Source: Naegleria gruberi
Taxonomy: Eukaryota
Assembly: GCA_000004985.1 (NCBI GenBank)
Contig: GG738849.1
Length of the DNA: 64,000 bases
Strand: one strand, 5' to 3'
Below are positions 16,552 through 59,757 of the stretch, in pieces; position 1 is the first letter of the stretch, and every line of letters begins with the position of its first letter. Under the pieces are notes generated by a model. It saw nothing but the letters and a program-made list of their open reading frames with translations, had not been told where the DNA came from and made no database searches. A program made the position numbers and the translations under genes.

Positions 16552-17475
16552 CACAGTAACTTTGCCTAATGGTGAGCATATTTTTTTGATGTTTTTTCTC
16601 TAGTTTTTGCTGGAAATTTTTGCCAACCTGCTTTTTTAGGATTACGGTTTTGCCCGCTAAAACATTGTTAAACTTTAAACAAAAATTAAGAAGTTTACAA
16701 ATATTTGTGGCCAGATTTGTTGCTAAAATTAATTCTTTCTTGTGTTATAACATAAGGCATCATGTTCACTACATATGTGGGGAAGAAACAACTGAACACA
16801 TTTTCCTACCAAAATTCAATAACTAAACAATTTTACCAACAATAGGAATCAAGAGGAGGAAAATACTGAAACATACACAGAAACCAACTCTACAACACTG
16901 GACAAAAACTAGACCTCATTGGCAATTGTCACAAAATCAAAGAAACCACAAAAGCTAATACTAGCATCTGGAAAGAAAGGAACGACTGGCTTCCCGAAAA
17001 CAATGAATGGAGCAAAGACCTTAACAAATATGTAAGCATTCTGTAGATAACAATCTACAGCATGCAATTTATTCAACCACGAGTCTGAATGACAATTAAA
17101 TAAATATAAATTAAATAAAAAAAAATTCACTACAAAATGACCACCTCAACTGTCCTCCTTATTTGCAACAATTCCCAAATGCAAAACCAATAACAGCCAA
17201 GGTTCAATAAAAGTGTTCGATTTAATCACCAAATCTACTCAAATCACCATCTATCAGATGAAAAACTATCTGTTACTGATATCCAATAGTCCACCAAATG
17301 AACTAAATGCATCATCCAACCACTTTTCCCTCTTTTTAAAGTAAAAAAAACGCCAACAATCCATCTGATGCAAAGAATCATGCTTCTCTGCAGTGTGTGT
17401 TGCCATAAAAATTACCCAAATTGAAAAAATTTCAAACTCTTTGCGCAATACAACAACAAATTAAAGAACGCAAAT

Positions 17476-30765: not shown

Positions 30766-32538
30766 TTATTTCTTTTTGGGATTGAAAGAATGAAAAGTCA
30801 AACCTGTTGATTGATCCTTAATAGGTTGTTCTGTCTGGTCAAATGAGTGGAAAGTCCAAGAAGAGGAAGAAATACTAGCCGAATGCATGTTTGATTTCTT
30901 AGGAGATTGTTCAGCAGAATTAACGGATGGATAGTTTGCAACAATTTGAATGGGTTGTGAATTATTGTTCGTCCAAACAGGAGGAGCAGTACCACTAACA
31001 ATCTGTATTGTTGTTGCAGGTTTTCTTTCCTGTTGTGTTGAATTTGCAACATTGTTAGCAGTGGTACCTGTTGCTGCTGAGACATTCTTATTGGAAAGTG
31101 ATGATTGCTGACTATTCGATTGTTGTTGTTGAATTGATAGAGTATTACTTGGAACACAACCTTCAAAATCAGAATTTGTAAAGGTTGGGAAATTGCTAGT
31201 TACAATAGATTTAGATGATTTGCTAACCTTGGCAGCTGAACCTTCTACATTATTTCCTGTGCTGTTTCTCTTTTTTGGATTTGGTGAATCGCTATTCTTC
31301 ATCATTATTTGATTGGATGGCATGTAATCAATGTGTGATAATGGTTGTGCATAATTATTGGAATAGTCAGTAATTTTGAATTGACCTAAAGGAGGTTGAG
31401 AAACGTGGAATTGATGAGTAATATTCTTAGTAGCATTAGTTTGATTATTATTATTTACAATTTGAGTGGACGGTTGTGCCTTAATTGGTTCATAATTTGA
31501 AAATTGAATTGTTTGTGACTGATTAGTGGAAGGTTGATAGTTTGTAAATTTAGTATTGTTTGTTTTTTTCAGTGATGTTACATTTGGTTGTTGCACTGTT
31601 TGCTGTTCTGATAAATTAATTGTTGACATCATTGGTGGAGAAGATTGAATTGGTTGTTGTGGTTGTGGATTTGCAAAATTATGAAATGTAAAATTGTTTG
31701 GAATGTTTGATTCTTTTGGTTTGTTGTTCTTCTTCTTGGATTGACCTGGTTGCATGGGAGACGATTGATTGACTTGTTCAACAAAAACCAGTGGTTGATT
31801 ATTTATCATTACCTGTTCCGAAATGGTAGTAGTTGTAATAGTGTTATTACCAATTGATTGTTGTTGAATTCGTTGTTGATGTTGTGGTTCAAAGACTTGT
31901 TGAGAATCATTTCCTCCTTGTTTGTTGAAATTATGGAACACTAGAGTTGTATTCATTCCATTGTTATTATTATTGGATGACATCAATGTTGTCTTTGATT
32001 GTTGTTGTTGAATGGATATCATATTATTAGAAGATGGAAGGAGGGAATAATTATTATTCAATGATGGTGATGATGTACTAGTGGTGGTGGTTATGATTGT
32101 TTGTTGTAAATTATTGTTATCCTCTCCATTCTGATTGATGGAGGATGTATTATTTCTATTCAGCATTGAAAGTATCACCGATTGATTGTTATTATTACTT
32201 GCACTCATCAGCATGATATTATTATTAGTCTTATTAATATTCATTTGTATCGATGGTGGTATATTCTCAAGAGTGTTGTTATCTTTTGATTGAATTGTTG
32301 ATGTGATTGTTGTTGTTGGTGGTGGTGGTTGATAGTTTACATTTGAACAAGTATCATTGGTAAGGGTTTCTTCCCCTCCGCTTATTGGTAGAGTTGTTAA
32401 GTTATCATTGGTGGAAGCTTCTACATTCTGACCATCAGATGGTTCCATGACATTCCTCAGCAATGATGATGCCGATTCTGATTCTGATGCTGGCGATGGT
32501 GCAATATTATTGAATTGCTGACTTGTTGCTTGGCTCAT
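30766..32538 (-). CDS. Q/N/S/T-rich low-complexity (prion-like composition) protein
   Basis: 590-aa ORF with a real ATG at 32538. Long poly-Q/N/T runs are encoded by (CAA/AAC/ACA)n and no globular domain is recognisable. The codon use is coding-like, which is typical of dictyostelid low-complexity proteins. Confidence 0.45.
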   Translation of the reverse strand: MSQATSQQFNNIAPSPASESESASSLLRNVMEPSDGQNVEASTNDNLTTLPISGGEETLTNDTCSNVNYQPPPPTTTITSTIQSKDNNTLENIPPSIQMNINKTNNNIMLMSASNNNNQSVILSMLNRNNTSSINQNGEDNNNLQQTIITTTTSTSSPSLNNNYSLLPSSNNMISIQQQQSKTTLMSSNNNNNGMNTTLVFHNFNKQGGNDSQQVFEPQHQQRIQQQSIGNNTITTTTISEQVMINNQPLVFVEQVNQSSPMQPGQSKKKNNKPKESNIPNNFTFHNFANPQPQQPIQSSPPMMSTINLSEQQTVQQPNVTSLKKTNNTKFTNYQPSTNQSQTIQFSNYEPIKAQPSTQIVNNNNQTNATKNITHQFHVSQPPLGQFKITDYSNNYAQPLSHIDYMPSNQIMMKNSDSPNPKKRNSTGNNVEGSAAKVSKSSKSIVTSNFPTFTNSDFEGCVPSNTLSIQQQQSNSQQSSLSNKNVSAATGTTANNVANSTQQERKPATTIQIVSGTAPPVWTNNNSQPIQIVANYPSVNSAEQSPKKSNMHSASISSSSWTFHSFDQTEQPIKDQSTGLTFHSFNPKKK

Positions 32539-36796: not shown

Positions 36797-38973
36797 ATGA
36801 TCACATCCACACTCCTCTTCTCTCTCCACATTGGAATCAGTTATTACAAACATTATTCCTTTGTGAGTGGATATAATCAAGTAATGGAAAAACACAAACA
36901 AACTTTTGTGACCGATGAAACTCTACTCACCATTCTATCACCCTATTTTCTATTGTTAATATTGGAAAATATTCTATCGAGTATATTATTGGATTTACCT
37001 ATTGTATTATTATTGGCTATTAGTTTATTAATTGGTATGTGTATTAATCTATCATTATTAAAACAGTTTAAATATATATTAACATTTTATAACAATATAT
37101 ATAATCATCAAAATATTAACATTTTACAATCTATTATCAATATATATTTGTTTTTAATATATGAAAAGTTGGAGGATTATATTATAAGAAACCATCTCCT
37201 ATTGTTAGTGTAGCGTCATCCTCATCAACATCATCCTCATTAACTATATATTCAATTGTGTCCAATCTTGTTATTGACAGTTTATTCATTTCACTTTTAT
37301 TAATTGAATCAAGTGGAAATTTCTACAAAATCCTATTAGCAATCATGTATATTATTACTGCCTTTGGACTTGTCAAGACACTTTCCTATACCATCTACTA
37401 TTCACATACTCAATTACTTGTCAAATTAGCTCAATTTTTCATTCCAATTAGAATTAATTCTGAAATTAGACAAATTGCTCATGATTTGTACAAATTTGAT
37501 TTTAATTCTTTGATTGCCTATGTAATGACTTTATTTTCTATTGTAATTATATTGTTACCTTTGGCATCTGGTGGTCAGGAATTGAAAGGAAAGTTGATTA
37601 TTTTATTTGGAACTAGTTTATTACAATTAGTTCATTTACCACAAATTCAACATTATTTACAAAAAGCAATTTCATTGGATGAATTTGTTAAATCTAAATT
37701 GACTAGTATTGTTCCTGTTGGTGGTAGTACTGAACATTCTCAACCAAAGACAAGCCAAGTAGTTTCGAATATTTCCTCCTCATCTTCTGTTAAAGAAAAG
37801 GCTAAATTATTCGAAAATAATAAGGAACAACCACAACAACAACCTATTGTTGAAAAGAAGCCAGTTATTGTCAAGAAACCAATTGAACAACCTTCAGCAA
37901 CTAGTCAACCTGCTCAACCAAAACAAGTTTCCAAATTGGCCTCAACTAGTACAACATCTTCTACTATTGAAAAGGAACAACCAACCATTGTAAAACCTTC
38001 TACTGTAGTTGCCACTGAATCTATTTCTAAGAAACCAGTTGAAAAGCCTTCAAATAATATTCCAACTAGTCAACCAGAAATTTCTAAACCAATTATTCCA
38101 AAAGAAACAATTCCACCAAAAGAAGATACCAAATTAACTATCACACCATCAGAATCTTCTACTAATGCTGCCAATGTGAGTGGTGGTGTTAAAATTTCCA
38201 AACTCAATCTCTCACAACTTTCCAATATTCCACCTTCCACTGATAATGCAACTTCTGCTGAAACTCTTTCATCTGCCAGAGATTCTTCACGTGACAGTGG
38301 TTCTCTCTCAGCTAGACGTTCAGGTTCCTTTGTAAATATCATGAAAAATGTTCAATCTCCAAGGGATTCAATGAATTCACCTCGAAATACTTCAGCACTT
38401 GATGGAGTGACAAGTCCACGTGGTACTGCTTTGTTATCACCAAGAAATAGTAGTAATTTCAGTCAGATTGCTGAGAGAATGAAACAAAAATTGAATTTGA
38501 AACCTAAAGTTGAATCAAATGGGCCAGTGGTTGAAAGTTCATCTACTCAATTGGGACAAACTCAAAAATTGCATGAATCTCCTAATACTATGGACAAATT
38601 CAAGAAGGCTAAACTGGCTCAACCTCGTAAAGAACGTACACGTGCCAATGTCAAACAATTACTCAATAACGTCCAAGAATCCAATGAAAATTTAATAGAG
38701 CTACCTAAACAAGACGATTTTGAAAAATTAGAACAAGCATCTAAAAATGAAAAGAAATTTGGACTCACCAATCCAATCTTTAGATTACCTCCTCCTCAAT
38801 CATCTATTTTACCATCTGCATCCTCAACTGTTGAAGAAAAAGAAGAAAAAAAGGTTAATCTCGATAAGGTTATTGGAAAATCAAAACAACAACAAGGAAT
38901 GGGTGGAATTGACTTACAATCTGTATTGAATGCAAGAAACAAATTAAAGAAAACAGGAGAAGAATTGAAATAA
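36797..38973 (+). CDS. Membrane protein with multi-TM N-terminus and long S/T/P-rich disordered tail ending in a WH2-like motif; probably 2 exons
   Basis: ORFs 36797..37213 and 37258..38973 are probably joined by an AT-rich intron (about 37037..37277). The exact donor is uncertain. The C-terminus GGIDLQSVLNARNKLKKT resembles a WH2 actin-binding motif. Confidence 0.4.
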
Positions 38974-39045: not shown

Positions 39046-42005
39046 ATGCTAACGAAACTAAAGAACTCTTTCAGAAAGAAGGGAGCATCCAATTCTACTG
39101 AAGAATCGTCTTCCTCCTCTGAAAACATTGGTAATCAGTCCATTACTAGATCATTTCACAATTTAATTCAAGACAAAACAGAAAAAACTCAAGAAGTGAA
39201 AGAAACTAAACAACGAAGAGAAAGTGAAGGATATCTATTGTTACATTTGATAGGAGCAAGTAATTTACCATCGGCTGATGCTAACGGATTGTCAGGTATG
39301 TTGTGATGAAAAAAATTGATGAATTTTAATTGATGATGAAAATTTGATGGATGACATTTAGATCCATTCTGTAGTATCAAGATTAAAAACACAGGTCTCA
39401 GTGAATCAGAGGAACAATATCAAAAAACTGAAGTAATTAAGAAAGAATTGAATCCACATTGGAATTCATTCTTTTTCTTTGATGTGATTGAATTTAATGG
39501 AACTTTTGTAGAGTTTGAGGTTTATGATTATGATAGACTTTCAAAGAATGAGTAGGTTTTTATTTACTTTGGTTGAATTTTCTAATTTTGGAAATTTTAC
39601 AAAACAATTTAAATAATTTAAAATATTTAAAAATATAAATTTAAAACAACAAGTTTATTGGGAGGATGTGCATTTAATATTAAACTATTAACACCATGTG
39701 TTCAAACAGAATTATCTATTGGATTAGATACTAAAGGAACAGTTGACTGTAACATGATGTACATTCCACAAACAACTTTTGGTTTCTTGATGAAGAAATG
39801 TATTGAAACAAAGAACATGTACATTGATAGGGATTTCCCTGCCACCACTACATCCATTTGTCATAATGAAACCTTTTTATCAAGTAAGGGAATTGACCCT
39901 TCTTCCATTAGTAAGTTTTTCACACATACACACACTTTAAAATTCTTAAAATTCTTCATAATTTCAAACGCACAGATTGGATGAGACCTAAAGAATTCTG
40001 TAAAGGATCTCTGAGACCAGAACTTTTCCTAGCAGGTGTTGAACCAGCAGATATCAGACAAGGTAAAATTGGTGATTGTTACTTTTTGGGAGCTATTGCA
40101 GTTGCAGCATTGCATCCAAAATTAATCAAATCCTTGTTTATTCCATCTGCCTATAATGAATATGGTATCTATCAGATTAAAATGTTTTATAATGGTATTT
40201 GGCAAGAGGTCATTATTGATGATTATGTTCCAGTGGTTGTCTCTTCAAAGATTGAACAAAAATCAAGAAGTAATTATGCACCACTTTTTGTAAGATCAAC
40301 TGATTTGGAAGAATTATGGGTAATTTTATTGGAAAAGGCATATGCTAAATTACATGGATCATATGAAGATATTGAAGGTGCTCATTCAATTCGTGAAGCA
40401 TTTGAACATTTAACTGGTGGTTGGTCAGATGCTATCGAATTAGCTCCATACATGAACGGTAAAAAATCAAATACTGACCTATTTAATAACATGTTGGAAT
40501 GGAAAAAGAATAGACATTTGATGGCAACTTCAACTGCTAGTGATAATGATTTTGATTTTGAGAATTATCTTGTTCCTAATGATAATGGTATAGTTCCAAA
40601 ACATGCCTATTCAATTCTAGATGTTCGTTATGTTTCAAAAGAGGAAAGTCCTGAAAATATTCCATATCAACTTGTCAAATTGAGAAATACATGGGGTAAA
40701 ACTGAGTGGAAAGGTAAATTCGCTGATGATTGGGAAGGATGGACTGATGCATTGGCTAAAAAACTCAATCAGGTTAATAGTGATGATGGTTCTTTCTGGA
40801 TGAGCATTGATGATTACGTTGAACAATTTAATTACTTGTACATTTGTCGTGTTCCAATCACTGATGGATTTATTAGAGAAATTTCAGCAATTCCAGTTGA
40901 TTTGGATATTAAAAAGATGATTAAGGAAAGAGCTAGTAATGCACACATTATTTTCGATAAGAGAGGAGGAGCATGTGAGTGGAATCAAGAACTTTATCAA
41001 AATGCAGGTGGACAAATTTATTTCAAGGAGAGTTTCTTCCAAAACCCACAATTTAGATTGACCATTGATTTACCACCATCTTTAGCGAATCAAGATGATA
41101 CAGCAAGTATTTCAGATTTTAAATCAAACATGATTCGTATCATTGTTTCTATTCGTATAGTTGACGATGAAAAGACAAAGGATGCCAAACGAAAGAAACA
41201 AACCAAACCAAATCCTCTAGGTCTATACGTTTTCAGAAATAGAAAGGCACAAAAATCTGGCAAGTATGCCTTAATGGACTTTCCAGATAATGCAGCTGAT
41301 AGAGTTGGAGAAACCAACATGAAGAAATTGAGTCGTGATGCTGTGGAAATTTATCTCCCAAGACCAAATCCAAAGAAATACGAACAGGAGAAACAAGAAG
41401 GATTGCACGATTATACCATTGTGGCAAGTCGTTGGTATCCTAATACAGAAGGTTCATTTGCTATTCAAGTTTGTTCAGATTACAAACATTTACAGTTTGA
41501 GGCAATTGATGGATCTCAATCAGCAGCTGCATTTTGTAAAAAGGTTATTAAGAGTGAGTGGAATGGAGTGGACTCATGTGGAGCTCATTGGCAAACATCA
41601 ACCTTTTCTACCAATCCAAAATTCCTTATTCAATGTAAGGAAATTCCTAACCACCCACAAGGTAGTGAAGATTCTCAATTTATTAGAAATGCTGTGAATA
41701 TTTATGTGGAATCTGAGAATGGAAAGATACCATTCTTTCCCTATGTAGTTTCATTGGTCAAGTTTAAAAAGTGGATGCAACAATCTGTACTGCAACCAAT
41801 CACTGAAGATCAATGTGTTCTATTTCCACCTAATGGAAATGAGTTCTTTACCATTCGTCATTCTTTTGATTGTGAGTTGGCCTGCAGAAGAGATAAACCA
41901 GTTTCATACTTGCTCATCTTGGGAACACCTTACAAGATGGCTGGAAAATTTACAATTGTTGTTAAGGCTGAACAAGAAATTACTATTGAACAAGTTTCAC
42001 TCTAA
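39046..42005 (+). CDS. Calpain-family cysteine protease with N-terminal C2 domain, 4 exons (908 aa)
   Basis: Exons are 39046..39295, 39362..39551, 39654..39910 and 39976..42005 (2727 nt, in frame). Donors are GTATGT, GTAGGT and GTAAGT. Exons 1-2 encode a C2 fold (LSG|DPFCSIKIKNTG...FEVYDYDRLSKND). The catalytic triad contexts are QGKIGDCYFLGAIA (Cys), VPKHAYSILDV (His) and VKLRNTWGKTEWKG (Asn). Confidence 0.8.
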
Positions 42006-42197: not shown

Positions 42198-45100
42198 TTA
42201 TAAGAAATCAAGAGTTTCTTCTGTTGTGTGATGAGTGTGAGAATGAGAGGAATGATGGTTACGAGAGTGATCCATGAGGGAACCAACAATTTCATCATCC
42301 TTACTCATGTATGAACTGAAACGGAGATGACTCAAGAGGGCATCCTTCAATTGATTAATGTTTTGTTCTTCAAGATTGGCGCTCTTTTCCTCCTTTTCTT
42401 CCTTTTCACCACTTTCTGCCTTCTCTAAAGTGTATGATCTCAGAGTTGGGAAGAAGGTAATATATTGCTTTTGAGCCAACTCGGCAACATATTGCTCAAT
42501 ACCTGTATATTCATCTTTTGGTTTCTTTTCGAGATAGATTAAAAAGTAAACATAATTCCACATGTTGTGTTCCTTCTTAATGTGTCCTTCAAAGGTAATA
42601 CCTTCATTGGCACGAACGTCGAATCTGGACTTTTCATTAGAACATATAAAGCAGAAACCTGACTTTTCCTCATCCAATTCTTGTTTCTCTTCTCTTCTTT
42701 CACTGAAACTTTCAAGCACAATACCGAAAACAACATTGACCAAAATAATGATAATCAAGAGTGAAAAGTACAAATCAATAAAGATACGGGTGACATCAAG
42801 TGGGTATGGATCAGTAATATCTTCCCAGAAACCACCTCCACGAAGACCATAATTGACAATGGACATGAAGCATGTTAATGTTTCCTTACAAACAATAACC
42901 TTGTTGAAAACAAACTGATCATACTTGAAGGAAAACATGAGGAAGGTGTGAACAATCATGGCAAATGCAGTCAAGACACCAGTGTAGAATAACTTTTCAT
43001 AATTTTGACCAATGGCAACAATAATATCCAATAAACCATCAGGAGATAAGAAGATTATTTCAAATGTCAATATAATATATGCCAAAGGTGTTACAAATAT
43101 ACCAATCAAAATCATGCAGAAATAGATTAAAATCCACCACAAGTAAGGATCTTGAGCAGTGTACAGGGCAAACTTTCTGAAAAATTCACGATCCTTATGC
43201 AATGTATCCCACGATTGATCCTTCTCCAGTTTGAATTTCTTCTTAATGTTCAACATTAGGAAGAAGTACAAGTGTATTCCCAATAATCCAAAGGTTAACA
43301 ATAATAGTATGAGACCCAATATTTCAACCACAATACCAATAGGCATATAATTAAAACTATTTCTATACTGTATGCCATCTGGTAGGGCAATACCTGGAAC
43401 AACTACTGGACCAGAAATTGAATCAAACTGTTTAGTATATGTAGCAGTGACCAGAATATTAATGAGTACTGCAATCAAAAACACTCCAACCTTAATCTTG
43501 TACCAATTCTTTTCTATAAATTTCCATCCTCTTGCTTTCAAACTATTTGGATTGTCCATAAGACTCTTCAAGTGCATCATTTCAATTCTTGCAATTTGAT
43601 AAGTCCAATCAAAGAGGGATTTCACCTTGGTTTGTGGAGATTCTCTGTTACAGCTTTCAACAAACTCATCCTTGGTAGATTCTTGTAAATGTCTACATTG
43701 TTTGATGATTTTAAAGTGAACGATTTCTAATTGGTTATCTCTAATGACTTCTATGGTACCAACTCTTGATTCATAGTAATTGAGCCATGCCTTTTCTCCT
43801 TCATCCATTTGACTAATAGTCTTGTCTTCCGAGTCAAGATAGTCTGGAGTAATTTCATTGAAATCAAAGTCCAAATATTTAAGGAGAATGAAAATAGAAA
43901 TACCAATGTTTTGGGATTTCTTGATGCAAGTACGAACATCAGCAGGATTAGGCGTTTCTGTCTTGTTTTCAAAAGCAAGTATTTTCTTGATTTTTTCCTT
44001 ATATTCTGAATGACCGTCTGTGAATAAAATCATGAGTTTGCATAATGACTTGAAATCTAGGGACTTTTTGATATGATTCTTTGAAATTTTGTTACCACCT
44101 TCTAACATACTGGTAAGAAGAATGATAATCTTTTCAATCAGCTCTAGTTCATCCTCAACCTTCAAGTGATCAACAAATTCACCTTCCAAATCGTCATCTG
44201 GGAAGTCCATATCCTTATCTTCTGGATCAAGAGATTTTCTACCCAAAATTTCATTAATGACAGTCATTAATCTGGTTGAGGAGGCAAGTTCAATAGATGT
44301 TTCAATACAAGGACCTTGAATCATTTCATTGAGAGTATCGAATGCTTGAATAAAGTTTTCAGCACTGTCTTCGCTCAAATACTTGAACAAACCCAAAACA
44401 TAGTCAATACATTCGGAAACTAGATTTACGGAAATCTTATTGAAAGGTTGATTGTAGAGCATTTGTTGATTTGGCAAGTAGTGACCTTCACACAACAACT
44501 TTAAAAAGAGCAAGACATCCTTTGCATTGGTTGTATCATGTTGAGCATCTTGGGAATTATTTCTCTTTCTTATAGAGAAGTATTCCTTAACTTCGTAGGT
44601 TGATTGTCTGAGACGGTTCTTCATGGCCATAAAGAATGACTCATAATTGCCACTTCTGACAATAGTACCAACAACCTTTCTGGTTTCAACTGAGGTCAAC
44701 ATTTCATGAGAGAGTTTGAGAGCTGGAACAACAATTTCATAATCCGCTGTCAAAAGTTGCAAGACCAATTCTGGTATTCCATTTTCAACAGAAAATTCTG
44801 GCTTTTGATCTTTGATAGCATACTTGATGGTTTCAATAGCTCCAATAAAGGTCTCAACTAAATCTTTGGTAATACCAATGGACATGATTCTTTGTAAAAC
44901 CCCAATTAGTGTCTTGAATTGACCTTCATAGGCGTTAACAAACAATTTGGCCAGATCTGAGAAGATTGATTCTGCACTTTGAGCTTGAATTGATTCAATG
45001 AAAAGCTTGAAACGTTTGGCTACTTCGTTACCAACATCAACTGTGAGTGCCTTGTTTTGAATGGCTTGTGGTGGAACAATCTTGACAAGGGCATTTCTCT

Positions 45101-48100
45101 TTACTTGCAAGAACTTGACCTCCAATTCGTGGGAAATTCTTGTACGTTGGTGAATTTCATAAAAGCACTTATCAATATCCTTTCTATAGTTTTCATTAGC
45201 AGTATATTTGTACAATTCTATGAGGTTGGTCAAAATTTCTTCAATAATTTGCAATGTATCACTCTCGTTGGACTCTTTTGCATTGGAGAGAGTTTCTTTG
45301 GAATAATAATTAATAAAGTAATTAGTCAGGAGTGGAATAATAATTGAATAAATGTACTTTTCACTGACATAGTACTCGGCACTAATATCATCATTGTCAT
45401 CCTGAGGAAGATCATTTCTGAGTGGAGGTAATTGATACGTGACATCTCTTTCTAATTTACAAATATTTCTACCCTTGCAGTCAATATAATATTTAATTTC
45501 TTCCTTGATTCTCTTGAAGAGACGCCAAATAGTAGTATTGGCAATAACGTCATTGGATTTCTTCTCTGTATTAATGTATAATTCGTTGAGCAAGCTCATG
45601 AGAGGATCTCTTACTAGAGGAATCAACTTTTCAGATAATAAAGAAATACAATCATCAAATGACAAGATGGATTGAATTTTGACTTCTGCCTCCTTTACGG
45701 TACCCAAGGTACAATCACTGAGTAAGTATAACATGTTAATGTGATAGTTCAAAAGAGAACCTGAAACTTTGTATTCCTTGTTGAGAATTCTTTGTCTTCT
45801 CTCCTCTATACCAACATCATCGTTGAAGAGAACAATGATATCTTTTCTTTCTGTTGAAAGGTAGATGGCAATAATATCTTGGTTTCTTTGTAAATTGGAA
45901 GTACCAATTCTCGTTAAAACTCTTAAAAAGTTTAAATGCCAAGACTTTTTACCCAACTCTCCAATCTTGTCAATATATTTGTGGATAAGTTTTTCGTCCA
46001 AGTTGATGAGGAGTTGCTTATTATCTCTCACAATTTCACATAACAATTCACTGGTATCTAATTTATCGGAGAAGATACCAATCAAAAAGGCAATGTGAGA
46101 GAAGAGCTCTGATTGATTTTCAGTATTACTTCTAACAAATTCTGTCAGCACTAAAACCGCTTTTTGATAAATATTACTCTTGATGTTTTCTGGGTAAATT
46201 TTAGTGAGGCAGAGAATCATGAGTTCGTGAATTTGCAAATTTCTCAGAATGCTTTGAGCACTATGGCCATACTTTTTCACGTCGGCAAGAATTCCCTTGA
46301 TGGTATTCTTGAATTCCTTATATTCTTTAGAATCTCTACCACCAGAGAAAGTGGCATTATTGACCAGATTGTTCAACTTGTTATAATAATTGAAAATAGT
46401 TTCATAGGATTGGACTAACTTTGGTGTGGTCAATAAAACTAATCTTTCCAAGTTATTCTTCAATTCAATATCTTGCATGGATGAACGAAGTAAAATCTTG
46501 AGAGCCTTGATTGGAAGTTCATTATTTTGATACTTGAGTAAGAAGAGCATTGTTGGAATGAATTTTAAAGGAGGAAGACTTGAATTGCTATGAGTATAAT
46601 CTGTCTTATCAAATTGGAAGAATGAAATATTCTTAATCTTCATCGCTAAAGTATCCATCATTCTGGTGTTATTGTCGTCAGACTTGGCTTTGAAAAAGTC
46701 AAGAATCAAACTAATACGATAGTCAATACGCATATCAATAACATAGAGTAGAATGTCACAAATTCTATTCTTAATCTTGATAATTAGACGATTGTTTTCC
46801 GAATCTACAAAGTTCAACTCTTCGTTGGCATCAGTTGTGGCCTTTAGGGTTGCCAATAATAAGTGAATAATGTTGGAAATTTCTTCCTGATCAGTGGTAT
46901 AACTTTCGTCCAACTTTTTGTGTTCCAAATCATCACCATATGGATTGTAAGCTCTGTACAAGAAGAGTTTGTGGCAAATCTTAACTAATTGATAGCTAAA
47001 CCATTGATCTTGGTTGGTAGTGAGTTTTCTATTGGCAGAAACGAAAAAGTGTTTGTAAATAAAGTCCTTCAGTCTCTTATGTTGATATCTGTAATCTTCA
47101 AAGGTAGTAGTGGTTCTAAGTGTACTGTTACTGTTTGTCCACTTTCTAGTAAGTTTAATTGCAGGTACTTGTTCAATACCAACAGCATCAACATACAAAT
47201 ATTCCATCAAATTGGAAAAAGCAGAACGAATACTCAGAGGAGCAGTTGCATCTTCAATACATTTCAATACCAAATCGTATGGGAAAATTCTTTGAACAAA
47301 GGGAATAGCCATTGTATTCTTACCAGAACACAATGAGGCGAAAAATCTGATTGAGCTTATCATAAATTCGAAATATTCAGTCTCACAAAAGTGTTTAAGT
47401 GATTTGGTTTCACCTGTTGAAGGGATATCCACAATAGGTTTCCCCTCCTCAATTCTTGGTACAATGAAAAGTCTTGGATGTTTTTGGATGGCATCAGATA
47501 AAAGTTCTACCAATCTGTTTTGATTCTTTTGGATTGGTCTTTCCTCACATTTACATAAAATTGTCAAAAGTTTGAGGTAGAGATCCTTCTTTCTGGTATT
47601 TTCAACTAAAAGATTGAAAAATCCCTCAATTTGACTCGATGAAATACTGTCCAATAGCTCCATATTATCCTTAATCATACCAATCAAAAGTTCTGTATTG
47701 GTCTGACCAATAGAGTTGGCAAAATCTTTGGAAGAGTTTAGGACAACTTCTGAAGATTCTCCCAAGATGTGATTTTGTAATTCGTGGAAATACTTTTCAA
47801 AGACGTATAAACTGTTTGGTACGTGAAGAAGTGTAATTTGTCTGATAGATCTGAAACTATATTGATAAAGTTGATCCCATTTGTCATCCTTGCCAAATAT
47901 TTCACCAGAATCCTTGATAACTTGCATAATAGTGTCAATGAGACCAATATCTCTGAATGCAGATTGCCTCTCAGGATATGGAATACCTTCTCTTTTCATT
48001 ACATCTTGTTGAGTACTTTCAGTACAAAATCTGATAATGTGACGTAACATTTCTAAAACAGATTCAATGTCAACACGTTGTGGTTGTTGAATGGATGTTT

Positions 48101-49972
48101 CCTTTTTCATCTTTCTAAAGTTACTCACAATTCTAAAAATTTGATAAACAATAGTAAAGTCCTTCAATTCCTTCTCTGAAGCTAAAAAGATAGAAAAAAC
48201 ATCTGTTTCCTTTTTTCTATAATCAAAAGTCAAATCTATAAACATGGTATTATCATTTACATTGAACATTTGTGGAGCAAGAGAGCTACGTCTATTTGAT
48301 ACAGAGTCTTTTCTGAAAAGACTTCCACGACCACTTCCAGTATTATTCGAATCATTCTTTGAAGATCTTTCTGCTGCGTGAAGCCATGTGTCAGTTCTCA
48401 AGTGACGAATTCTGACAAGATTTTTTCTTTCAACAGGTTGACCATATCCAACGGCCTCTGATGCACCAACTTCAGGTGAGTGCAATGTGAAGAGAGTATC
48501 GTCGTTGGCCTCTTTGATTAGACCAGGTCTAAGAACTTGTTTTAAGGTTTTCTTAATTTTCAACCAACCACGTGCTGTTTGAGAACCATCATTAGCATCT
48601 GAAACTTCAGTCTTTTGAATACATAGATATTGTCCTGAAGGCAAGTGTTTTAACCTGAAAGGCACACTATATCTGACGAAACCGCCTTTGAATTTATCCA
48701 CATTTTCAATCTCGAATAAAGCGTTCACAGATGAGAGAGCATATTTCTCAGTAAATAATTTTACAAACTCCTTTTGTTGGAATAAATACCCTTCAGCATC
48801 CTTGTGAAACAATCTGATAACATCTCCAGTTTTTAAATAAGCCTTTGCTGAATAGACTGAATAGGGTGTATACAGATTAATTCTCCAAACATTTGATGAA
48901 TTAGATGCTGTAGCATTCACTTCATTTCTATTATCTCTATTCACTAAAGGTTTGTTATAAACCACTTGTGAAAAGTGGAGAGTATGTTTTGATTTTTCAT
49001 TGAATAGAACAATCTTATCGGACAATCTTACAGGTTCATTCTCTTGTCTAAATTTGAAATGTGGCATAATTTGAAAGAATGTTCTACTTCCACTAGTTGC
49101 CAATGAAATTGCAATACAAGCCTTTTCTAATTCTGCATTGGTACGAAGAACTGTTAAATATTCTTGTGATTGTACGTGTAATAATTGAATTCTAGCACCG
49201 TATGATACTACTTTTCCGAGAGCCTATAATGTATTCCGACAAATCATAGAATGTTATATCAAATATGAAATCCAAAAAAAAATTATTTATCCAATTAATC
49301 AAATAATTAATAGAATGAACATTTTTTTTCAATTGTTTTTTTAAAAATTATTAATTTGTGTAACATTCTACTAATACATACCTTTTGGGCTTCTATTATA
49401 TTTTGTTGTTCTTCTCTTTCCATTTTGATTTTCAACTTTTTAGATTCTACACTCTTCTCTGGATGTTTATTCGAGTTGATCATTGAGAGAATATTCTTTC
49501 CGTACTTCATGGATGTTCTTCTGGAGGCAAATAGAGCCTCTCCCAAGGCACTTGTTGAAGACATCTTGTTATCCACAAATTCATTATATCTTTTGAGAGC
49601 CGAATAGGAACCTCCCTTCATGACTACGAATAAACTTTCCTTTGAACTTGCTGATTGACTATCAATTTCTGATGATGAAGTGAATGGAGTTGCTCCACAT
49701 CGAATTGGATTTAATCCTCTAATTGAAAGATAGGATTTTTCATCTTCGTATACTAGAGAAATAACATCTCCATATCGAAGGAATAAATTTTGATTAGAAT
49801 TTGATGAGGATGATGTAATAGATGACGAAACGATGGCAATTGATGAATTACTAGAATTTGTTGTTGTTGTATTGGAATTGTTGGAGAGGAGAAGAGACTG
49901 CTGATTGCTAGAGTTGGCTGCCTGCAATGCCACAGACATCAACATTGAATTGTTCGCTGAAAGTGCAGACAT
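42198..49972 (-). CDS. ITPR: Inositol 1,4,5-trisphosphate receptor / ryanodine receptor-like Ca2+ release channel, 2 exons (2538 aa)
   Basis: Exons are 49972..49382 and 49223..42198; the intron runs 49224..49381 (GTATGT..TTATAG). The N-terminus has IP3R suppressor/MIR-like sequence (LFLRYGDVISLVYEDEKSYLSIRG, VVSYGARIQLLHVQSQEYLTV). Central RIH/helical regions follow. The C-terminus has 6 TM helices and a pore loop (LRGGGFWEDITDP) followed by ...FCFICS. Confidence 0.9.
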
Positions 49973-50130
49973 TTTTTGTTTTGATGGGTGACTTTCAGTT
50001 CATCACTGAAATTAGCACAATCCACAATCAACATACAACGAATCTAATATTCCGATTCTCTTCAAAACGAGCTCATTGAGATAGTGGATAAATATTTGTG
50101 AATAACAATGTACCCTGATGTTTATATATA

Positions 50131-52778
50131 CTATTGATCCAGATCCACATTCATATTCAATTGGGAGAAGGACTTTTTAAGTGAAATAGTAGATCCAAAA
50201 TAACGTAAAATACCAGTATCACACTCTTGTATGTGCATTGGCAAGTTTTCTCCAACATGTCTCTTATTGGCCTGAATGAAAAACTTGGCCCTTCTTGACC
50301 AGTCGTGAATTAATGATTTCAAAATATTCTGTTCAATATCGTAGAGAGTATTGTAATCCATATTGGAGGTTGTGGAATATTGTTGGACGTGTGTAAAAAT
50401 TGTTTGGAAAAAGAGTTTTTCAATTTCCTTGCCTAGAGTTGTTTCCTTATATTCTTGCTCGGTATGAATTGATATCTCCTCGATATCATTCGACGAATAT
50501 CCCTCAATATCAAGTAGAATGACAAATCTAAAATCAACACTATCCTCAGTGATTTGAACATGTTTAGGTACTGTGAGAAAATTGGCATCATATGGGAACA
50601 CATAGGATTCACTGTCTTGAACCATTTTGGCACATTCCTTTGGAACGATGGTTGTGAAGAGCCGGCAAATCTCATTCCTCATTTGAACATTGTCACTCCT
50701 AACTATTAATTGGTTCCCTATGAGAACATTATAGATGAGTGATTTGATCATTTCCTCACTTTGAGTGTAAGACTCTTCATTTGCATCATCAGTATCAGCA
50801 AGCTCGATACCAATAAATAAATTTCTCTCCAGTAAAACCTTATTGAAAAGGCTCTTTTTAACCATTTTTGAAAAATCTGACAACAAGTTAAAACAGCCAT
50901 TTGCTGGTGTGGATGGTGAATCACTTTCATTCGAGGTAATGCTAGAATTACTAATAAATGACCTAATCCTTGGCATTTCACAAGATGGAATCGAATAATT
51001 ATTGTACATGTCTAATTTTTGATAATTTGAATTATCCAATTCAATTTCAGATAATTTGCTGTAAAATGATTGTAATAATCCAGAAAAGCAATTGTGTAAA
51101 TCCGAATAAAAATCTGGATAATTCAATAAAAGAGGTAAATCTCTCATAGGACCTTTGGAACGTTTTTGTCTGAATACATCTGCTGAGAGTGGACCTCCAG
51201 AATGGAAAAATCTATAACCATGATCCTCAGCATTAGTACCATCCTCATTGAGAGCATTAGAGGAACCTGATCGCTTTTGTTTTTCCTTCTCCTCTAAAAA
51301 TATTTGTTGAGAACGAGCTCGAATAAGCTTGACAATTCTACCCATACCACTATTGAGGAAGGGCCAACTAATTGTAAGCATTGAAAGAGAAGTATCCATT
51401 AATACTATGGCAAACCATCTGGCAAACCCTCTTGCCATACTATCCTTAACTTTGAAAATATAGGCAAAATTGTATCCATTAATTTCATCACCAAATAGAA
51501 CTGGGCCCTCTCTTCCTTGACCCACTGAAATTTCTGCTGATGTGCTACGAATGGCTAAAGTTTTAAAGTGAGCTGAAAATTTTGAACTTTCTTGATGTGA
51601 ACTCACAAAAATTTGCTCATTATCTCGATCTATTGTTAATTGCTCAATTGAGGATAACATTAATAATTGATTAAAATGGTCATTTTCCTCCTGTTGATTT
51701 GAGTTGTGTTCTTTTCCGAACAAGTTAGGATAGTATTTTTTGAGATGCAACATTAAATCTTTAGAGGCAAGGGACGAAATTGTTTGAGGATGATCTAGAT
51801 TTTCCAAATTAGTGATATCCAAATTATTGGTAGAAGATGAGTTGCTATTTGATTCTTGTAATGGTGTTGTTGAAGTGATTTCACTACCGTTTGGTGTTGG
51901 ACTAGTTGTGGAAGAAGGAGGAGAACTTGTTGAGGTGGATGATGTTTTGTGTTGTTCTGTAACTTGGTGACGATGGTGATGTTGATGATGACTCACTATT
52001 TGAGTTGTCTTGTGTTGTTCAAGGACGAATTTCTCTAAATGTGAAATATCATGAATATTATTAATCATTTGAGTGCAATAGACAAATGAAGGTCCTTTTT
52101 GTTCACAAAACTGGGCTAACACAATAGCATGCTTGTTGTATATATTCACTGTATTGGAATTGGCACCACTATTTGCATTATTCATGATGGAAGATAATTT
52201 ACTGGAAGGATTAACTCTCATACTTTTCGAAATGTTTCTCTGCTTTGGTGAAATATCCATTATTTCCGAAGTATGTCTCGTCATTACTCTCTGAAACATT
52301 CCATTATTATTTTGTTATTGTGATGAGAATTATTTGATGTTGTGAGTGGGCTTCCGGATTGATCACTTCCCATAAAACAAGAGCTATTTACACTATTCAT
52401 CATGAGTGTTGTTGATGCTGTACTGACATTTCCTGTACTACTGCTACCATTACTTTGCATTGAGAAGGGTATTCCGGAAATATTATTTTCTTGTTGTTGC
52501 TGGTTAGGAGTTGTTTCAAATTGTTGTTGTCTATCTGATGAGTTTGTTTGTTGATTGGTTGGGGTGAGAGTGCTTCTTCGTTGTGCTCCTACTTTAATCA
52601 TTCTCTTCCTTGCTGTTGATGATGTTGTAGTTGAAGCATTGTTTGGAGTAATACTCCCACCAGAAGAATTGTTTGATTTTGAATCGTTGTTATTATTATT
52701 GTTGATGGATCCACTAACAGCAACACTGTTACCACTCCCAGAAGGGTTTAAAGGGGAGGATGTTTTGTTATTGATCAT
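50131..52778 (-). CDS. FLCN: Folliculin (FLCN) homolog, uDENN/DENN family, 2 exons (848 aa) with low-complexity N-terminal extension
   Basis: Exons are 52778..52392 and 52290..50131; the intron runs 52291..52391 (GTAAAT..TTTCAG, phase 0). AIVLAQFCEQKGPSFVYCTQ matches human [61 protein letters not shown] matches [39 protein letters not shown]. Confidence 0.85.
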
Positions 52779-57148: not shown

Positions 57149-59757
57149 TTACACATTTTCTTGAAGTCTAAATTGTAAATGTTCATACAAATCATTGGAA
57201 ACTACATGAATGTCAGTTGCACTAGGACTGCCTTGTTGTTGGCTGGTAAGGAAGAATAATACTTTATCACCATTGTTTGGAAGGATAGATGCCTTATTGA
57301 AATTCTTGATATGGAAAAATACGAGTGGAATTCTGTCAACTTCAGGCATATTTGAAGGATGTGCCATAACGTTAATCTTACCAAATGTTTCCTTTTTGCC
57401 AATAATTTCTCCAAGACAATAGTTAAATTGAGAAATTAGTTCATCTGGTAAATCACCAAGTTCGAATAATTTTCGTGCTATTGGCTTTTCTTGTGGAGGT
57501 GAATCTGTGTCGGCCTCATAAGGACTTGGTTGTAGTAATATATTCTTTGATTCTCCTTTGATGGTACTTTGTATGGATCCAGATGCAGATGTTGATGATC
57601 CTTTAGATTTAGTTGGCTGGGTGGTAGTTGTTTTCTTCTTCTTTGATTGTCTAACTTTGAAAGTAATGTTAGTACCATGAGATTCTTTTAACTTTTTCAA
57701 ATCTTCCTTTAGCTGACCGAATAATTCTGGGAAGTTTTGTGGAACGTTTTGTAATCTTTCTATAAGCTCAATATTCTGAGCGTATTCATTTCCTGAAATT
57801 GTTTGGAATTGAATCAAATCCCCCAATTGTAAGTTTTCAATTCTACATCTCAAAGAGGAAGTAGATGTGAGAATCTTTCCAAATGGCTTTTCCAATTCAA
57901 TCACAATACCTATGTCATATCCAGTTTTGATAGTAAAGTCAACACGTTTGTAAAGTTGAGCTTTCTTTAATTTTTCAGTTTCTTCCAAGGCTTTATCATT
58001 AAACTTCTTTCTTTCCACAGCTTTGGCAAATTTACCTACATTAAATGTTAGAGAATTTTAAATTTTAAAATATTAAACATACCTACGCTGAGGACAACCT
58101 TAATTTCCTCTGGTTCTTGTTGTGTTGTATTTGATATTGCTTCGTTTTGTTTTGTCTCAGCTGATGTTGTAGAAGATGAACTAGTATCTGGTAAAGTACT
58201 CTGTTTTGTGGTTCTAGTCTTCTTTTGAGGAACAATGTTCTCATTGGAAGTTTGATCCTTTGTGTTATTAATTTCCTTATTGGCAGATTTCTTCTTTGAT
58301 TTGGTTGTAGGTGCATTATTGACCACAGGCGCACTCAAGGTTGTAGTTTTTGGTGTCTCTGAAAGTTTTTCATAATAGGCCAGCTGTTCACCATAACCTC
58401 CACATGCTTCTGTTGGACAAGTAATACTTCTATCATTATTTCTGTTAGCTCTGTAATACTTTAGCCAACATTCCTTGTGGAAATTGAGCTTGCACTTATT
58501 AGAACAAGTACAAATATAAAAATCATCTTTGTTTGTAATTGTTCTACCACCAGATTGGTTACAGAATAAACAAGTACCCAATTCAATAATTTCAATTTGA
58601 GGCTCATTAGAGGTGTTGGATGGTACTTCAACTTTTGGTGTTGATGTAGGTTGTTGCTCTTGCAAAAGTTGTTGTCTTTTCTGTTCCTCTCTCTGTTTCT
58701 TATTTTCTTTTCTCTTTTTAGATTCTTCTAATTTGGCCTTATATTCTTCCCATTCTTTCTTATTCTTTTCAGTATTTCTTGGAGCTCTTCGTTTAACTGT
58801 TTCAGGAATGGTGCTGCTAGTTGGGTCCTTCTGGTTCTGCATTCTTCTCATTTGAGTAGCTTGGAAAAAGTCTTCATCGTCACTATCTTCTCCACTGTGA
58901 AAAGAATCAGAATCGTCATCACTATTTGAATCATCCTCAATTAAATCAGGTAGATCACTATCATCATCTTCCTCATCTTCATCATCCACTAAACCAGGCA
59001 TGCCTTCATCACTTGTTTCTACTAGAGGAGGTAATTCATCCTCACTATCGTCCTCTTCATTATCAGTATCCATTAGTGGTGGAGGTAGAGAGTCGTCGTC
59101 ACTATTTTCGTCATTTTCATCTACATCCTCCCAATCATCTTCATTCTCTTCATCATCAGTTGTATCTACTAGAGGTGGTAATTCATCCTCTTCCGATTGT
59201 GTTTTTAGACTTGGATTGGTAATTACTTCTGGCTGGTTTTTGAGTTTTTGATCATCTTGTTTCTCCTCTTCATCATCGATATCAACTAAAGGTGGTAATT
59301 CATCCTCTGCACTATCCTTGTCTAATTTCTCTTCTTCATCCTCAGTATCCACCAATGGAGGCAAAACATCTTCTTCAGCCTTCTCCTCTTCATCATCAGT
59401 TTCCATTAGTGGAGGTAATTCATCCTCTTCCTCGTCATCAGTATCCATTAGAGGTGGCAAATCTTCACCATCGGAATGATCACCAGAATCTGTTGCTTTT
59501 GATTCACTATTTCTGGTAGTAATATTATCAGAGCTTGAAGCCTTGTTGTTACTAACTTCCTCTTTATCATCAGTATCCATAAGTGGAGGTAATTCATCCT
59601 CTTCCTCATTATCGGTATCCATCAGAGGTGGCAATTCATCTTCATTATCAGTGCCAACCAAAGGAGGTTGGTCTGATTCTTCTTCCTCGTCCGTATCCAT
59701 TAGAGGTGGTAAGTCTTCTTCCTCCTCTTCATTATCGGTATCTATCAGAGGTGGCAA
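57149..59757 (-). CDS. Acidic tandem-repeat protein (about 15 LPPLMDTDDEEE-type units) with C-terminal Cys-rich zinc-binding-like module and basic linker; 5' end incomplete (upstream exon expected)
   Basis: ORFs 59757..58048 and 58018..57149 are joined by a roughly 45-nt intron (GTATGT..AATGTAG) that gives ...VVLSVG|KFAKAVERKKFNDK.... The ORF-track M residues at 59757 and 58018 are TTG and GTG, not real starts. The in-frame upstream sequence has an AG acceptor at about 59770 and a TAG, which implies an upstream 5' exon. The Cys-rich module is CLFCNQSGG...CTCSNKCKLNFHKECWLKYY...CPTEACGGY. Confidence 0.55.

What the first reader, a model, noticed from the sequence alone, without database searches (positions are those of the whole stretch)
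42198..49972. IP3R/RyR-like Ca2+ release channel with an atypical pore motif (GGGFWED)
The 2538-aa, two-exon gene has the IP3R N-terminal suppressor/MIR-like region and the six-TM C-terminal channel domain. However, the selectivity-filter position reads LRGGGFWEDITDP, where metazoan IP3R has GGGVGD and RyR has GGGIGD. The bulky aromatic Phe-Trp insertion and the Glu in place of the first Asp would be expected to alter pore geometry or selectivity. The gene lies head-to-tail only about 160 bp upstream of the folliculin gene, so both promoters are very short.
Basis: partly seen in the sequence, partly recalled or inferred. Interest (0 to 1): 0.55.

Follow-up and report, generated by a model that had tools for sequence, protein, structure and literature searches.

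The report
Naegleria IP3R/RyR-like channel, divergent pore filter
This is an already-annotated Naegleria gruberi gene for a giant IP3-receptor/ryanodine-receptor-type calcium-release channel whose pore filter reads GGFWED instead of the near-universal GGGxGD; the change is same-length, conserved across a clade of related amoebae, and comes with loss of most IP3-binding residues.

Summary
The gene is real. It lies on the minus strand: exon 1 49972..49382, a 158-nt GT..AG intron, exon 2 49223..42198, giving 2538 aa. The protein is identical to XP_002681876.1, "inositol 1,4,5-triphosphate receptor 2", of Naegleria gruberi, so the organism is a heterolobosean and not a dictyostelid.

Pfam, PDB sequence matches and an AlphaFold model all place it in the IP3R/RyR superfamily. 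GGGFWED (aa 2326-2332) sits exactly between the pore helix and S6, and no canonical motif exists elsewhere in the protein.

The "Phe-Trp insertion" reading is wrong. Pairwise and multiple alignments are ungapped here: R-G-G-G-F-W-E-D matches R-S-G-G-G-I/V-G-D. The filter is therefore GGFWED. The final Asp is kept, and F, W and E replace G, I/V and G.

The motif is conserved in N. fowleri, N. lovaniensis and Willaertia magna orthologues. FWED-like variants occur in their paralogues, which form a clade found in 65 of 70 NJ bootstraps. Outside that clade 94 of 116 representatives are canonical.

The Ca2+-site Glu pair, the Zn finger and the S6 Phe are kept. Only 2 of 11 IP3-contact residues survive.

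Best reading: a Ca2+-regulated cation-release channel of a lineage-specific subfamily, probably not classically IP3-gated. This is a new variant of a known kind, of moderate interest.

The parts
49382..49972 (-). Exon 1 (aa 1-197): low-complexity N-terminus and the start of the suppressor-like Ins145_P3_rec domain
   Evidence: ORF and translation. The start region is similar in the N. lovaniensis and N. fowleri orthologues.
49224..49381 (-). The single 158-nt intron (GTATGT...ATAG, 18% GC)
   Evidence: The spliced product equals the RefSeq protein. The ITPR2 alignment is ungapped across the junction.
42198..49223 (-). Exon 2 (aa 198-2538 plus stop)
48351..48839 (-). MIR domain (aa 326-488). 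It contains KLFT--EKY (48741..48761) where IP3R1 has the IP3-contact loop R265-T-T-G-R269.
   Evidence: Pfam; alignments; coordinates
47499..48053 (-). First RIH domain (aa 588-772). It contains YPERQSAFRD (R504->P, K508->S, R511 kept) and LHVPNS (Y567/R568/K569 -> H/V/P).
   Evidence: Pfam; MSA; coordinates
44244..44540 (-). RIH_assoc domain (aa 1759-1857) carrying the conserved Glu pair E1776 (44487..44489) and E1830 (44325..44327)
   Evidence: Pfam; MSA; coordinates
42840..42881 (-). Pore helix (aa 2312-2325, TLTCFMSIVNYGLR), ending in the invariant Arg
   Evidence: AF2 model DSSP helix 253-266; invariant R and two Cys; coordinates
42819..42839 (-). Selectivity-filter stretch GGGFWED (aa 2326-2332). 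Residues 2327-2332 (GGFWED) occupy the columns of the canonical GGGxGD.
42657..42794 (-). S6 pore-lining helix and its cytosolic extension (aa 2341-2386), including NVVFGIVL with the conserved Phe-Gly
   Evidence: AF2 model helix 282-327; alignment to IP3R S6; coordinates
42567..42653 (-). C-terminal zinc-finger motif CFIC...H....H (aa 2388-2416)
   Evidence: Invariant C329/C332/H352/H357 in alignment A1; aligned to the IP3R CFICG...HIKEEH
49973..50130 (-). 158-bp spacer between the folliculin stop codon and this gene's ATG. It must hold the folliculin 3' end and this gene's promoter and 5'UTR.

Best explanation
The locus encodes a full-length member of the IP3R/RyR superfamily of tetrameric intracellular cation (Ca2+) release channels from Naegleria gruberi. 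It belongs to a lineage-specific subfamily (Naegleria, Willaertia, other heteroloboseans and unnamed environmental relatives). In this subfamily the six-residue filter GGGxGD has been replaced, at the same length, by x-G-F-[WFL]-E-[DN], here GGFWED.

Shown: the domain architecture; the pore helix-loop-S6 geometry; the position and conservation of the motif; retention of the filter Asp, the invariant Arg before the filter, the S6 Phe-Gly, the C-terminal Zn finger and the two Glu of the cytosolic Ca2+-activation site; and loss of 9 of 11 IP3-contact residues.

Inferred: the protein still forms a cation-conducting pore. An adjacent Glu-Asp acidic pair at the luminal mouth resembles the Asp-Glu pair of RyR (GGGIGDE), shifted by one position. 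The Phe and Trp side chains probably pack against the pore helix or neighbouring subunit, as the Ile/Val of the canonical filter does, rather than plugging the pore. Gating is primarily by cytosolic Ca2+ and/or an unidentified ligand, not by IP3 bound in the classical pocket. Conductance and divalent/monovalent selectivity probably differ from metazoan channels.
For: Identity and gene model. Superfamily domains. C-terminal 476 aa against PDB: ITPR1-3 at E~1e-39 and RyR1-3 at E~1e-25, with the filter aligned ungapped. AF2 model (pLDDT 75) shows pore helix 2312-2325, a loop, then S6 2341-2386. Foldseek top hits are the IP3R3 and RyR1 transmembrane domains, TMq 0.54-0.61.

Motif conservation: N. 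lovaniensis and N. fowleri GGGFWEDITDA, Willaertia magna GGGFWEDITP. Paralogues read GESFWED, SEAFLEN, GEGFLED, TDGFFED and SDSAFEN; Heterolobosea sp. BB2 reads SGGWWED. In 17 clade representatives Glu is present at filter position 5 in 16 and Phe at position 3 in 12. Outside the clade 94 of 116 representatives are canonical. The clade is monophyletic in 65 of 70 NJ bootstraps with the filter columns removed.

Other features: Ca2+-site Glu pair kept; Zn finger, Arg and luminal Cys invariant; IP3 contacts lost. Prole & Taylor 2011 (PMC3194816) report that trypanosomatid homologues keep GGGXGD and also lack many IP3-binding basic residues.
Against: There are no functional data of any kind (conductance, selectivity, ligand, localisation). 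The filter part of the AF2 model has only about 66-67 pLDDT and is a monomer, so the orientation of the F, W and E side chains relative to the pore axis is not established. Replacing two filter Gly residues could abolish conduction. Loss of IP3-contact residues does not prove loss of IP3 sensitivity. The mapping of E1776/E1830 to the Ca2+ site (RyR1 E3893/E3967, hIP3R3 E1882/E1946) and the RyR D4899/E4900 comparison rest on my recollection of the structural literature plus motif matching. I could not determine whether N. gruberi also has a canonical GGGxGD paralogue.
Confidence: 0.7

Rival explanations
1. It is a bona fide IP3-gated Ca2+ release channel, as its database name says. The pore change is functionally neutral, and the IP3 pocket is merely divergent in sequence.
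For: The RefSeq name is 'inositol 1,4,5-triphosphate receptor 2'. The best PDB matches are IP3Rs rather than RyRs. The size and domain order are IP3R-like, with no SPRY or RyR repeats. T266 and R511 equivalents are kept.
Against: R265, T267, G268, R269, R504, K508, Y567, R568 and K569 equivalents are all absent or replaced (F, gap, gap, E, P, S, H, V, P), in both the pairwise alignment and the MSA. The database name is a homology-transfer label. The filter change is under clade-wide constraint rather than drifting.
Confidence: 0.2
2. The FWED filter changes what the channel does. It could be a non-selective or monovalent-cation channel (for example a counter-ion or organelle-specific conductance), or a poorly conducting or regulatory subunit, rather than a Ca2+ release channel.
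For: Two of the three filter glycines that are nearly invariant outside the clade (G3 in 106 of 116, G5 as G/A/S in 107 of 116) are replaced by Phe and Glu. The family has expanded into several paralogues per species with variable filters (SEAFLEN, SDSAFEN, TRFVLEN), which suggests functional diversification.
Against: The filter Asp and an additional adjacent Glu are retained, giving more rather than less negative charge at the pore mouth. The gating machinery (Ca2+-site Glu pair, Zn finger, S6 Phe-Gly) is intact.
Confidence: 0.2
3. One reading: the canonical GGG is kept, and Phe-Trp is an insertion that pushes a Glu into the place of the filter Asp.
For: Read alone, the string GGGFWED invites aligning GGG with GGG. 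The downstream ED-I-x-DP resembles RyR DE-I-E-DP if a one-residue gap is placed before GGG (my own reading of the sequence).
Against: All computed alignments are ungapped from the invariant Arg to the Asp. Clade members with only two, one or no Gly before the Phe (SGGFWED, SNGFWED, AEGFWED, GESFWED) keep the same Arg-to-Asp spacing.
Confidence: 0.05
4. The motif is an artefact of sequencing error, a frameshift or a wrong gene model.
For: None found.
Against: The long exon-2 ORF is uninterrupted. The motif is identical in three other species' independent assemblies, and the flanking pore helix and S6 align well.
Confidence: 0.01

Closest known systems
Metazoan IP3 receptors (ITPR1-3)
   Same: Best sequence and fold matches. 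The size is about 2500-2700 aa. The domain order is the same: suppressor-like, MIR, RIH, RIH, RIH_assoc, 6-TM channel, Zn finger. Also kept are the pore helix, the GLR before the filter, the filter Asp, the S6 Phe-Gly, the luminal Cys pair and the Ca2+-site Glu pair.
   Different: The filter is GGFWED rather than GGGVGD. The luminal loop after the filter is 4 residues shorter. 9 of 11 IP3-contact residues are missing.
Ryanodine receptors (RyR1-3)
   Same: The channel-domain fold (TMq up to 0.61), the lack of IP3-contact residues, an adjacent acidic pair at the luminal end of the filter (ED here, DE in RyR GGGIGDE by my recollection), and a following I-x-D-P.
   Different: There are no SPRY or RyR-repeat domains and the protein is half the size. 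The filter glycines are replaced.
Trypanosomatid IP3R/RyR homologues (TbIP3R, TcIP3R, Leishmania)
   Same: They are fellow Discoba, with the same general architecture, and also lack many IP3-binding basic residues (PMC3194816).
   Different: They are reported to keep the conserved GGGXGD filter (PMC3194816). The Naegleria clade does not.
Heterolobosean paralogues and orthologues (N. fowleri XP_044559953, XP_044566730, XP_044564172; N. lovaniensis XP_044554696; Willaertia magna KAL9643987 and others)
   Same: The same clade and the same FWED-type filter. The orthologue channel domains are 73-75% (Naegleria species) and 51-53% (Willaertia) identical.
   Different: All are unnamed 'hypothetical' or 'MIR domain-containing' proteins. 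The paralogues vary at filter positions 1, 3, 4 and 6.

Membership tests
IP3R/RyR superfamily of Ca2+ release channels | N-terminal suppressor-like, MIR, RIH and RIH_assoc domains | tested here: met
   Pfam Ins145_P3_rec 4e-25, MIR 1e-16, RYDR_ITPR 4e-13 (2 stretches), RIH_assoc 2e-26, all above the curated cut-offs
IP3R/RyR superfamily of Ca2+ release channels | C-terminal six-TM channel domain with pore helix, filter loop and long S6, homologous to IP3R/RyR | tested here: met
   phmmer against PDB gives E~1e-39 to ITPR and 1e-25 to RyR. The AF2 model shows the helices. Foldseek top hits are the IP3R3 and RyR1 transmembrane domains.
IP3R/RyR superfamily of Ca2+ release channels | GGGxGD selectivity-filter signature | tested here: not met
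   The aligned columns read GGFWED, so only G1, G2 and D6 are kept. No canonical motif exists elsewhere in the protein. This feature is a signature of most but not all homologues: 94 of 116 outside the clade have it.
IP3R/RyR superfamily of Ca2+ release channels | C-terminal CxxC...HxxxxH zinc finger after S6 | tested here: met
   CFIC...HIKKEH at aa 2388-2416, invariant in alignment A1
IP3R/RyR superfamily of Ca2+ release channels | Two Glu residues of the cytosolic Ca2+-activation site (LLCE(G/N)H and (T/N)E(Y/F/M)xQGPC motifs) | tested here: met
   E1776 and E1830 are conserved. Their assignment to the Ca2+ site is from my recollection of RyR1 and IP3R3 structures.
IP3 receptor sensu stricto (IP3-gated) | IP3-coordinating residues R265, T266, T267, G268, R269, R504, K508, R511, Y567, R568, K569 (IP3R1 numbering) | tested here: not met
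   Only the T266 and R511 equivalents are kept. The others are F, gap, gap, E, P, S, H, V, P. The residue list is from my knowledge of the IP3R1 binding-core structure.
IP3 receptor sensu stricto (IP3-gated) | IP3 binding and IP3-evoked Ca2+ release | not testable with these tools
   This needs biochemistry or physiology. No paper on Naegleria IP3R function was found.
Ryanodine receptor | SPRY domains, RyR repeats, about 5000 aa | tested here: not met
   No SPRY or RyR-domain Pfam hits, and the protein is 2538 aa

The most novel reading that the evidence does not exclude
The heterolobosean 'FWED' proteins are a functionally distinct third branch of the IP3R/RyR superfamily. They would be channels whose aromatic and doubly acidic filter gives a different ion selectivity or conductance, and which are gated by Ca2+ or an unknown messenger instead of IP3. 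The same GGFWED string in the jakobid Stygiella, which falls outside the clade in the rough tree, would then point either to an ancient Discoba-wide filter type or to convergent evolution of it.
Probability: 0.3. Interest if true: 0.65.

Novelty: new variant of a known kind. Interest (0 to 1): 0.45.

Why it matters
GGGxGD is treated as the signature of IP3R/RyR pores, and mutations in it are standard 'pore-dead' or disease alleles. A whole clade that has replaced three of the six residues under purifying selection is a natural experiment on how this filter works. It shows which positions (the Arg before the filter, G2 and the final Asp) are truly indispensable.

The clade includes Naegleria fowleri, the agent of primary amoebic meningoencephalitis. 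A release channel whose pore and ligand pocket both differ from the human proteins is, in principle, a selective drug target, following the logic of Prole & Taylor 2011.

The result also warns that the database name 'IP3 receptor' for these proteins is not supported at the ligand-binding site.

Tried and rejected
1. The search for homologous proteins was run twice. The first run used the C-terminal 476 aa and the second the 242-aa pore region. They returned only 1 and 7 fragments and missed even the query itself, so the tool was abandoned in favour of the exhaustive HMMER representative search.
3. Literature searches for IplA plus selectivity filter, for 'GFWED', for Naegleria plus IP3R, and for Naegleria plus trisphosphate receptor found nothing describing this filter or these proteins. 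Alzayady et al. 2015 (PMC4540961) is not held.
4. The organism is not a dictyostelid, and I had no verified IplA sequence among the fetched proteins.
5. Treating all FWED-bearing sequences including Stygiella P0043 as one clade failed: 12 of 100 bootstraps, with P0043 placed elsewhere. Without P0043 the clade holds in 65 of 70.
6. The gapped 'GGG=GGG' alignment was considered and rejected.
7. No tRNAs are present in the window.
Full report
**1. Observation**

The region holds two minus-strand ORFs, 49307..49972 and 42198..49103. Joining them with a GT..AG intron at 49381..49224 (158 nt, 18% GC) gives exon 1 49972..49382 and exon 2 49223..42198. The product is a 2538-aa protein with a single terminal stop.

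An exact-sequence look-up shows this protein is XP_002681876.1/EFC49132.1, 'inositol 1,4,5-triphosphate receptor 2 [Naegleria gruberi strain NEG-M]'. So the gene model is already public, and the organism is a heterolobosean amoeboflagellate, not a dictyostelid.

The splice is supported independently. The phmmer alignment to human ITPR2 runs ungapped through ...IIEAQK|ALGKVVSYGARIQLLH.... The N-terminus also resembles those of the N. lovaniensis and N. fowleri orthologues.

GGGFWED is at aa 2326-2332, window 42819..42839(-).

The folliculin gene (Pfam Folliculin and Folliculin_C) is the ORF 50131..52299 on the same strand. It lies upstream of this gene, with a 158-bp spacer. A calpain gene (39981..42005, plus strand) converges on the 3' end, 192 bp away.

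**2. What it is**

Pfam finds Ins145_P3_rec (aa 62-316), MIR (326-488), two RIH stretches (best 588-772) and RIH_assoc (1759-1857), all above the curated cut-offs. It finds no SPRY or RyR repeats.

The last 476 aa hit ITPR1-3 chains in the PDB at E~1e-39 and RyR1-3 at E~1e-25.

An AlphaFold2 model of aa 2060-2480, built on an 18-sequence alignment, has mean pLDDT 75. It shows the expected helices, including a pore helix at aa 2312-2325, a loop carrying GGGFWED, and a long S6 at aa 2341-2386. Foldseek returns the IP3R3 and RyR1 transmembrane domains as top hits (TMq 0.54-0.61, E~1e-13).

No other GGGxG[DE]-like string exists in the protein.

**3. How the motif aligns**

The computed alignments disagree.

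- phmmer aligns glrGGGFWEDi with glrnGGGVGDv without a gap.
- BLOSUM62 local alignments to 45 homologues do the same.
- A MAFFT alignment of 137 homologues also does the same.

The invariant Arg that ends the pore helix and the filter Asp are seven residues apart in both types. Clade members read R-S-G-G-F-W-E-D, R-S-N-G-F-W-E-D, R-A-E-G-F-W-E-D and R-G-E-S-F-W-E-D. This shows that the first Gly of the Naegleria GGG sits in the variable S/A/N column.

The canonical G1-G2-G3-(I/V)-G5-D6 therefore corresponds to G2327-G2328-F2329-W2330-E2331-D2332. G3 becomes F, I/V becomes W, G5 becomes E, and D6 is retained. The luminal loop after the filter is 4 residues shorter than in ITPR1/2.

**4. Is it more than a one-off?**

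An exhaustive HMMER search of 1.84 billion cluster representatives found 4097 homologues at E<=1e-3.

The closest are orthologues. N. lovaniensis and N. fowleri are 73% identical over the C-terminal domain and read GGGFWEDITDA. Willaertia magna is 51% identical and reads GGGFWEDITP.

Next come paralogues. N. fowleri has GESFWED and SEAFLEN. W. magna has GEGFLED, TDGFFED, SDSAFEN and SGGGWD. Heterolobosea sp. BB2 has SGGWWED. Unnamed environmental sequences have SNGFWED, AEGFWED and TGGFFED.

In 17 clade representatives, position 5 is Glu in 16, position 3 is Phe in 12, position 4 is W, F or L in 14, and position 6 is D or N in 14. In 116 representatives outside the clade, 94 match GGG[ILVMF][GAST][DE].

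An NJ tree was built on 256 channel-domain columns with the filter columns removed. It recovers the 21 FWED-type sequences as a clade in 65 of 70 bootstraps.

The jakobid Stygiella incarcerata also has SGGFWED but falls outside the clade in this rough tree. Whether that reflects ancestry within Discoba or convergence is unresolved.

Prole & Taylor 2011 report that trypanosomatid homologues keep GGGXGD (PMC3194816).

**5. What else is conserved or lost**

Conserved features:
- The Arg of GLR and two luminal Cys before the pore helix are kept.
- The S6 NVVFGIVL aligns with NLIFGVII of IP3R.
- The CFIC...H....H zinc finger is kept.
- The two Glu in LLCEGHY (E1776) and LNEMIQGPC (E1830) are kept. 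From my recollection of the RyR1 and IP3R3 structures, these are the Glu residues of the cytosolic Ca2+-activation site (RyR1 E3893/E3967; hIP3R3 E1882/E1946).

Lost features concern the IP3 pocket:
- In the MSA with a vertebrate IP3R1 representative (P0049), FLRTTGRQ aligns with KLFT--EK. R265 becomes F, T267 and G268 are deleted, and R269 becomes E.
- NRERQKLMR aligns with YPERQSAFR. R504 becomes P, K508 becomes S, and R511 is kept.
- DYRKNQ aligns with LHVPNS. Y567, R568 and K569 become H, V and P.
- In total, 2 of 11 contact residues survive, and the whole clade behaves the same way.

Such loss is common in protist homologues and was noted for trypanosomatids (PMC3194816). It argues against classical IP3 gating without proving it absent.

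**6. Mechanism (best reading)**

The protein is a tetrameric endomembrane cation-release channel with intact Ca2+-dependent gating machinery and a remodelled filter.

The retained Asp plus the new adjacent Glu give an acidic pair at the luminal mouth. This is reminiscent of the RyR D4899/E4900 pair, one position earlier (the RyR part is from memory).

The bulky Phe and Trp most likely pack against the pore helix or a neighbouring subunit. That is where the Ile/Val side chain of the canonical filter points. These last points are inference, and the filter region of the model has only about 66 pLDDT and is monomeric.

Rivals are a true IP3R with a cryptic pocket, or a channel with altered or abolished Ca2+ permeation. 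An artefact is excluded by cross-species conservation.

**7. Novelty and score**

The gene itself is annotated. I found no publication describing the FWED filter, the heterolobosean clade or Naegleria IP3R-like channels in the searchable library, which is incomplete.

It is a new variant of a known kind. It is moderately surprising to a channel specialist and directly testable by mutagenesis or structure, with some relevance to N. fowleri as a pathogen. Interest is 0.45.

Noticed in passing
P0091, P0101, P0137 (and gapped P0133); not in the window: A second, separate group of IP3R/RyR homologues has another non-canonical filter, G-A-P-[VT]-W-(D/I)(D). It also carries a Trp and forms its own cluster in the NJ tree. 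The source organisms were not looked up.
   Followed up: no
P0043 (Stygiella incarcerata, EukProt EP01028), aa ~1980-1990: A jakobid protein carries exactly GLRSGGFWED but groups outside the heterolobosean clade in the rough NJ tree. This could mean ancestral Discoba inheritance or convergence.
   Followed up: partly
window 39981..42005 (+): A calpain-family cysteine protease gene (Peptidase_C2 1.6e-71 plus Calpain_III) converges on the channel gene's 3' end with only 192 bp between the stop codons. A Ca2+-activated protease lies next to a Ca2+-release-channel homologue, which is probably coincidence.
   Followed up: no
window 50131..52299 (-): The folliculin homologue ORF of 722 aa is not in the protein collection as an exact sequence. 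The deposited gene model probably differs from this ORF, for example in start codon or an intron.
   Followed up: no
window 11533..16554 (-): Two adjacent same-strand ORFs look like one split DNA polymerase theta (POLQ) gene. They are a DEAD/ResIII helicase (14974..16554) and HTH_61, POLQ_helical and DNA_pol_A (11533..14907), separated by about 66 bp, presumably a short intron.
   Followed up: no
window 30766..32538 (-), 37258..38973 (+), 58048..59757 (-): Three long ORFs (569-590 aa) have no Pfam match at E<=1e-5.
   Followed up: no
tool behaviour: The word-indexed protein search failed to return the query's own database entry or its 75%-identical orthologues, which the exact look-up and the HMMER representative search both found. 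A negative result from that tool should not be trusted for this kind of low-complexity-rich eukaryotic protein.
   Followed up: yes
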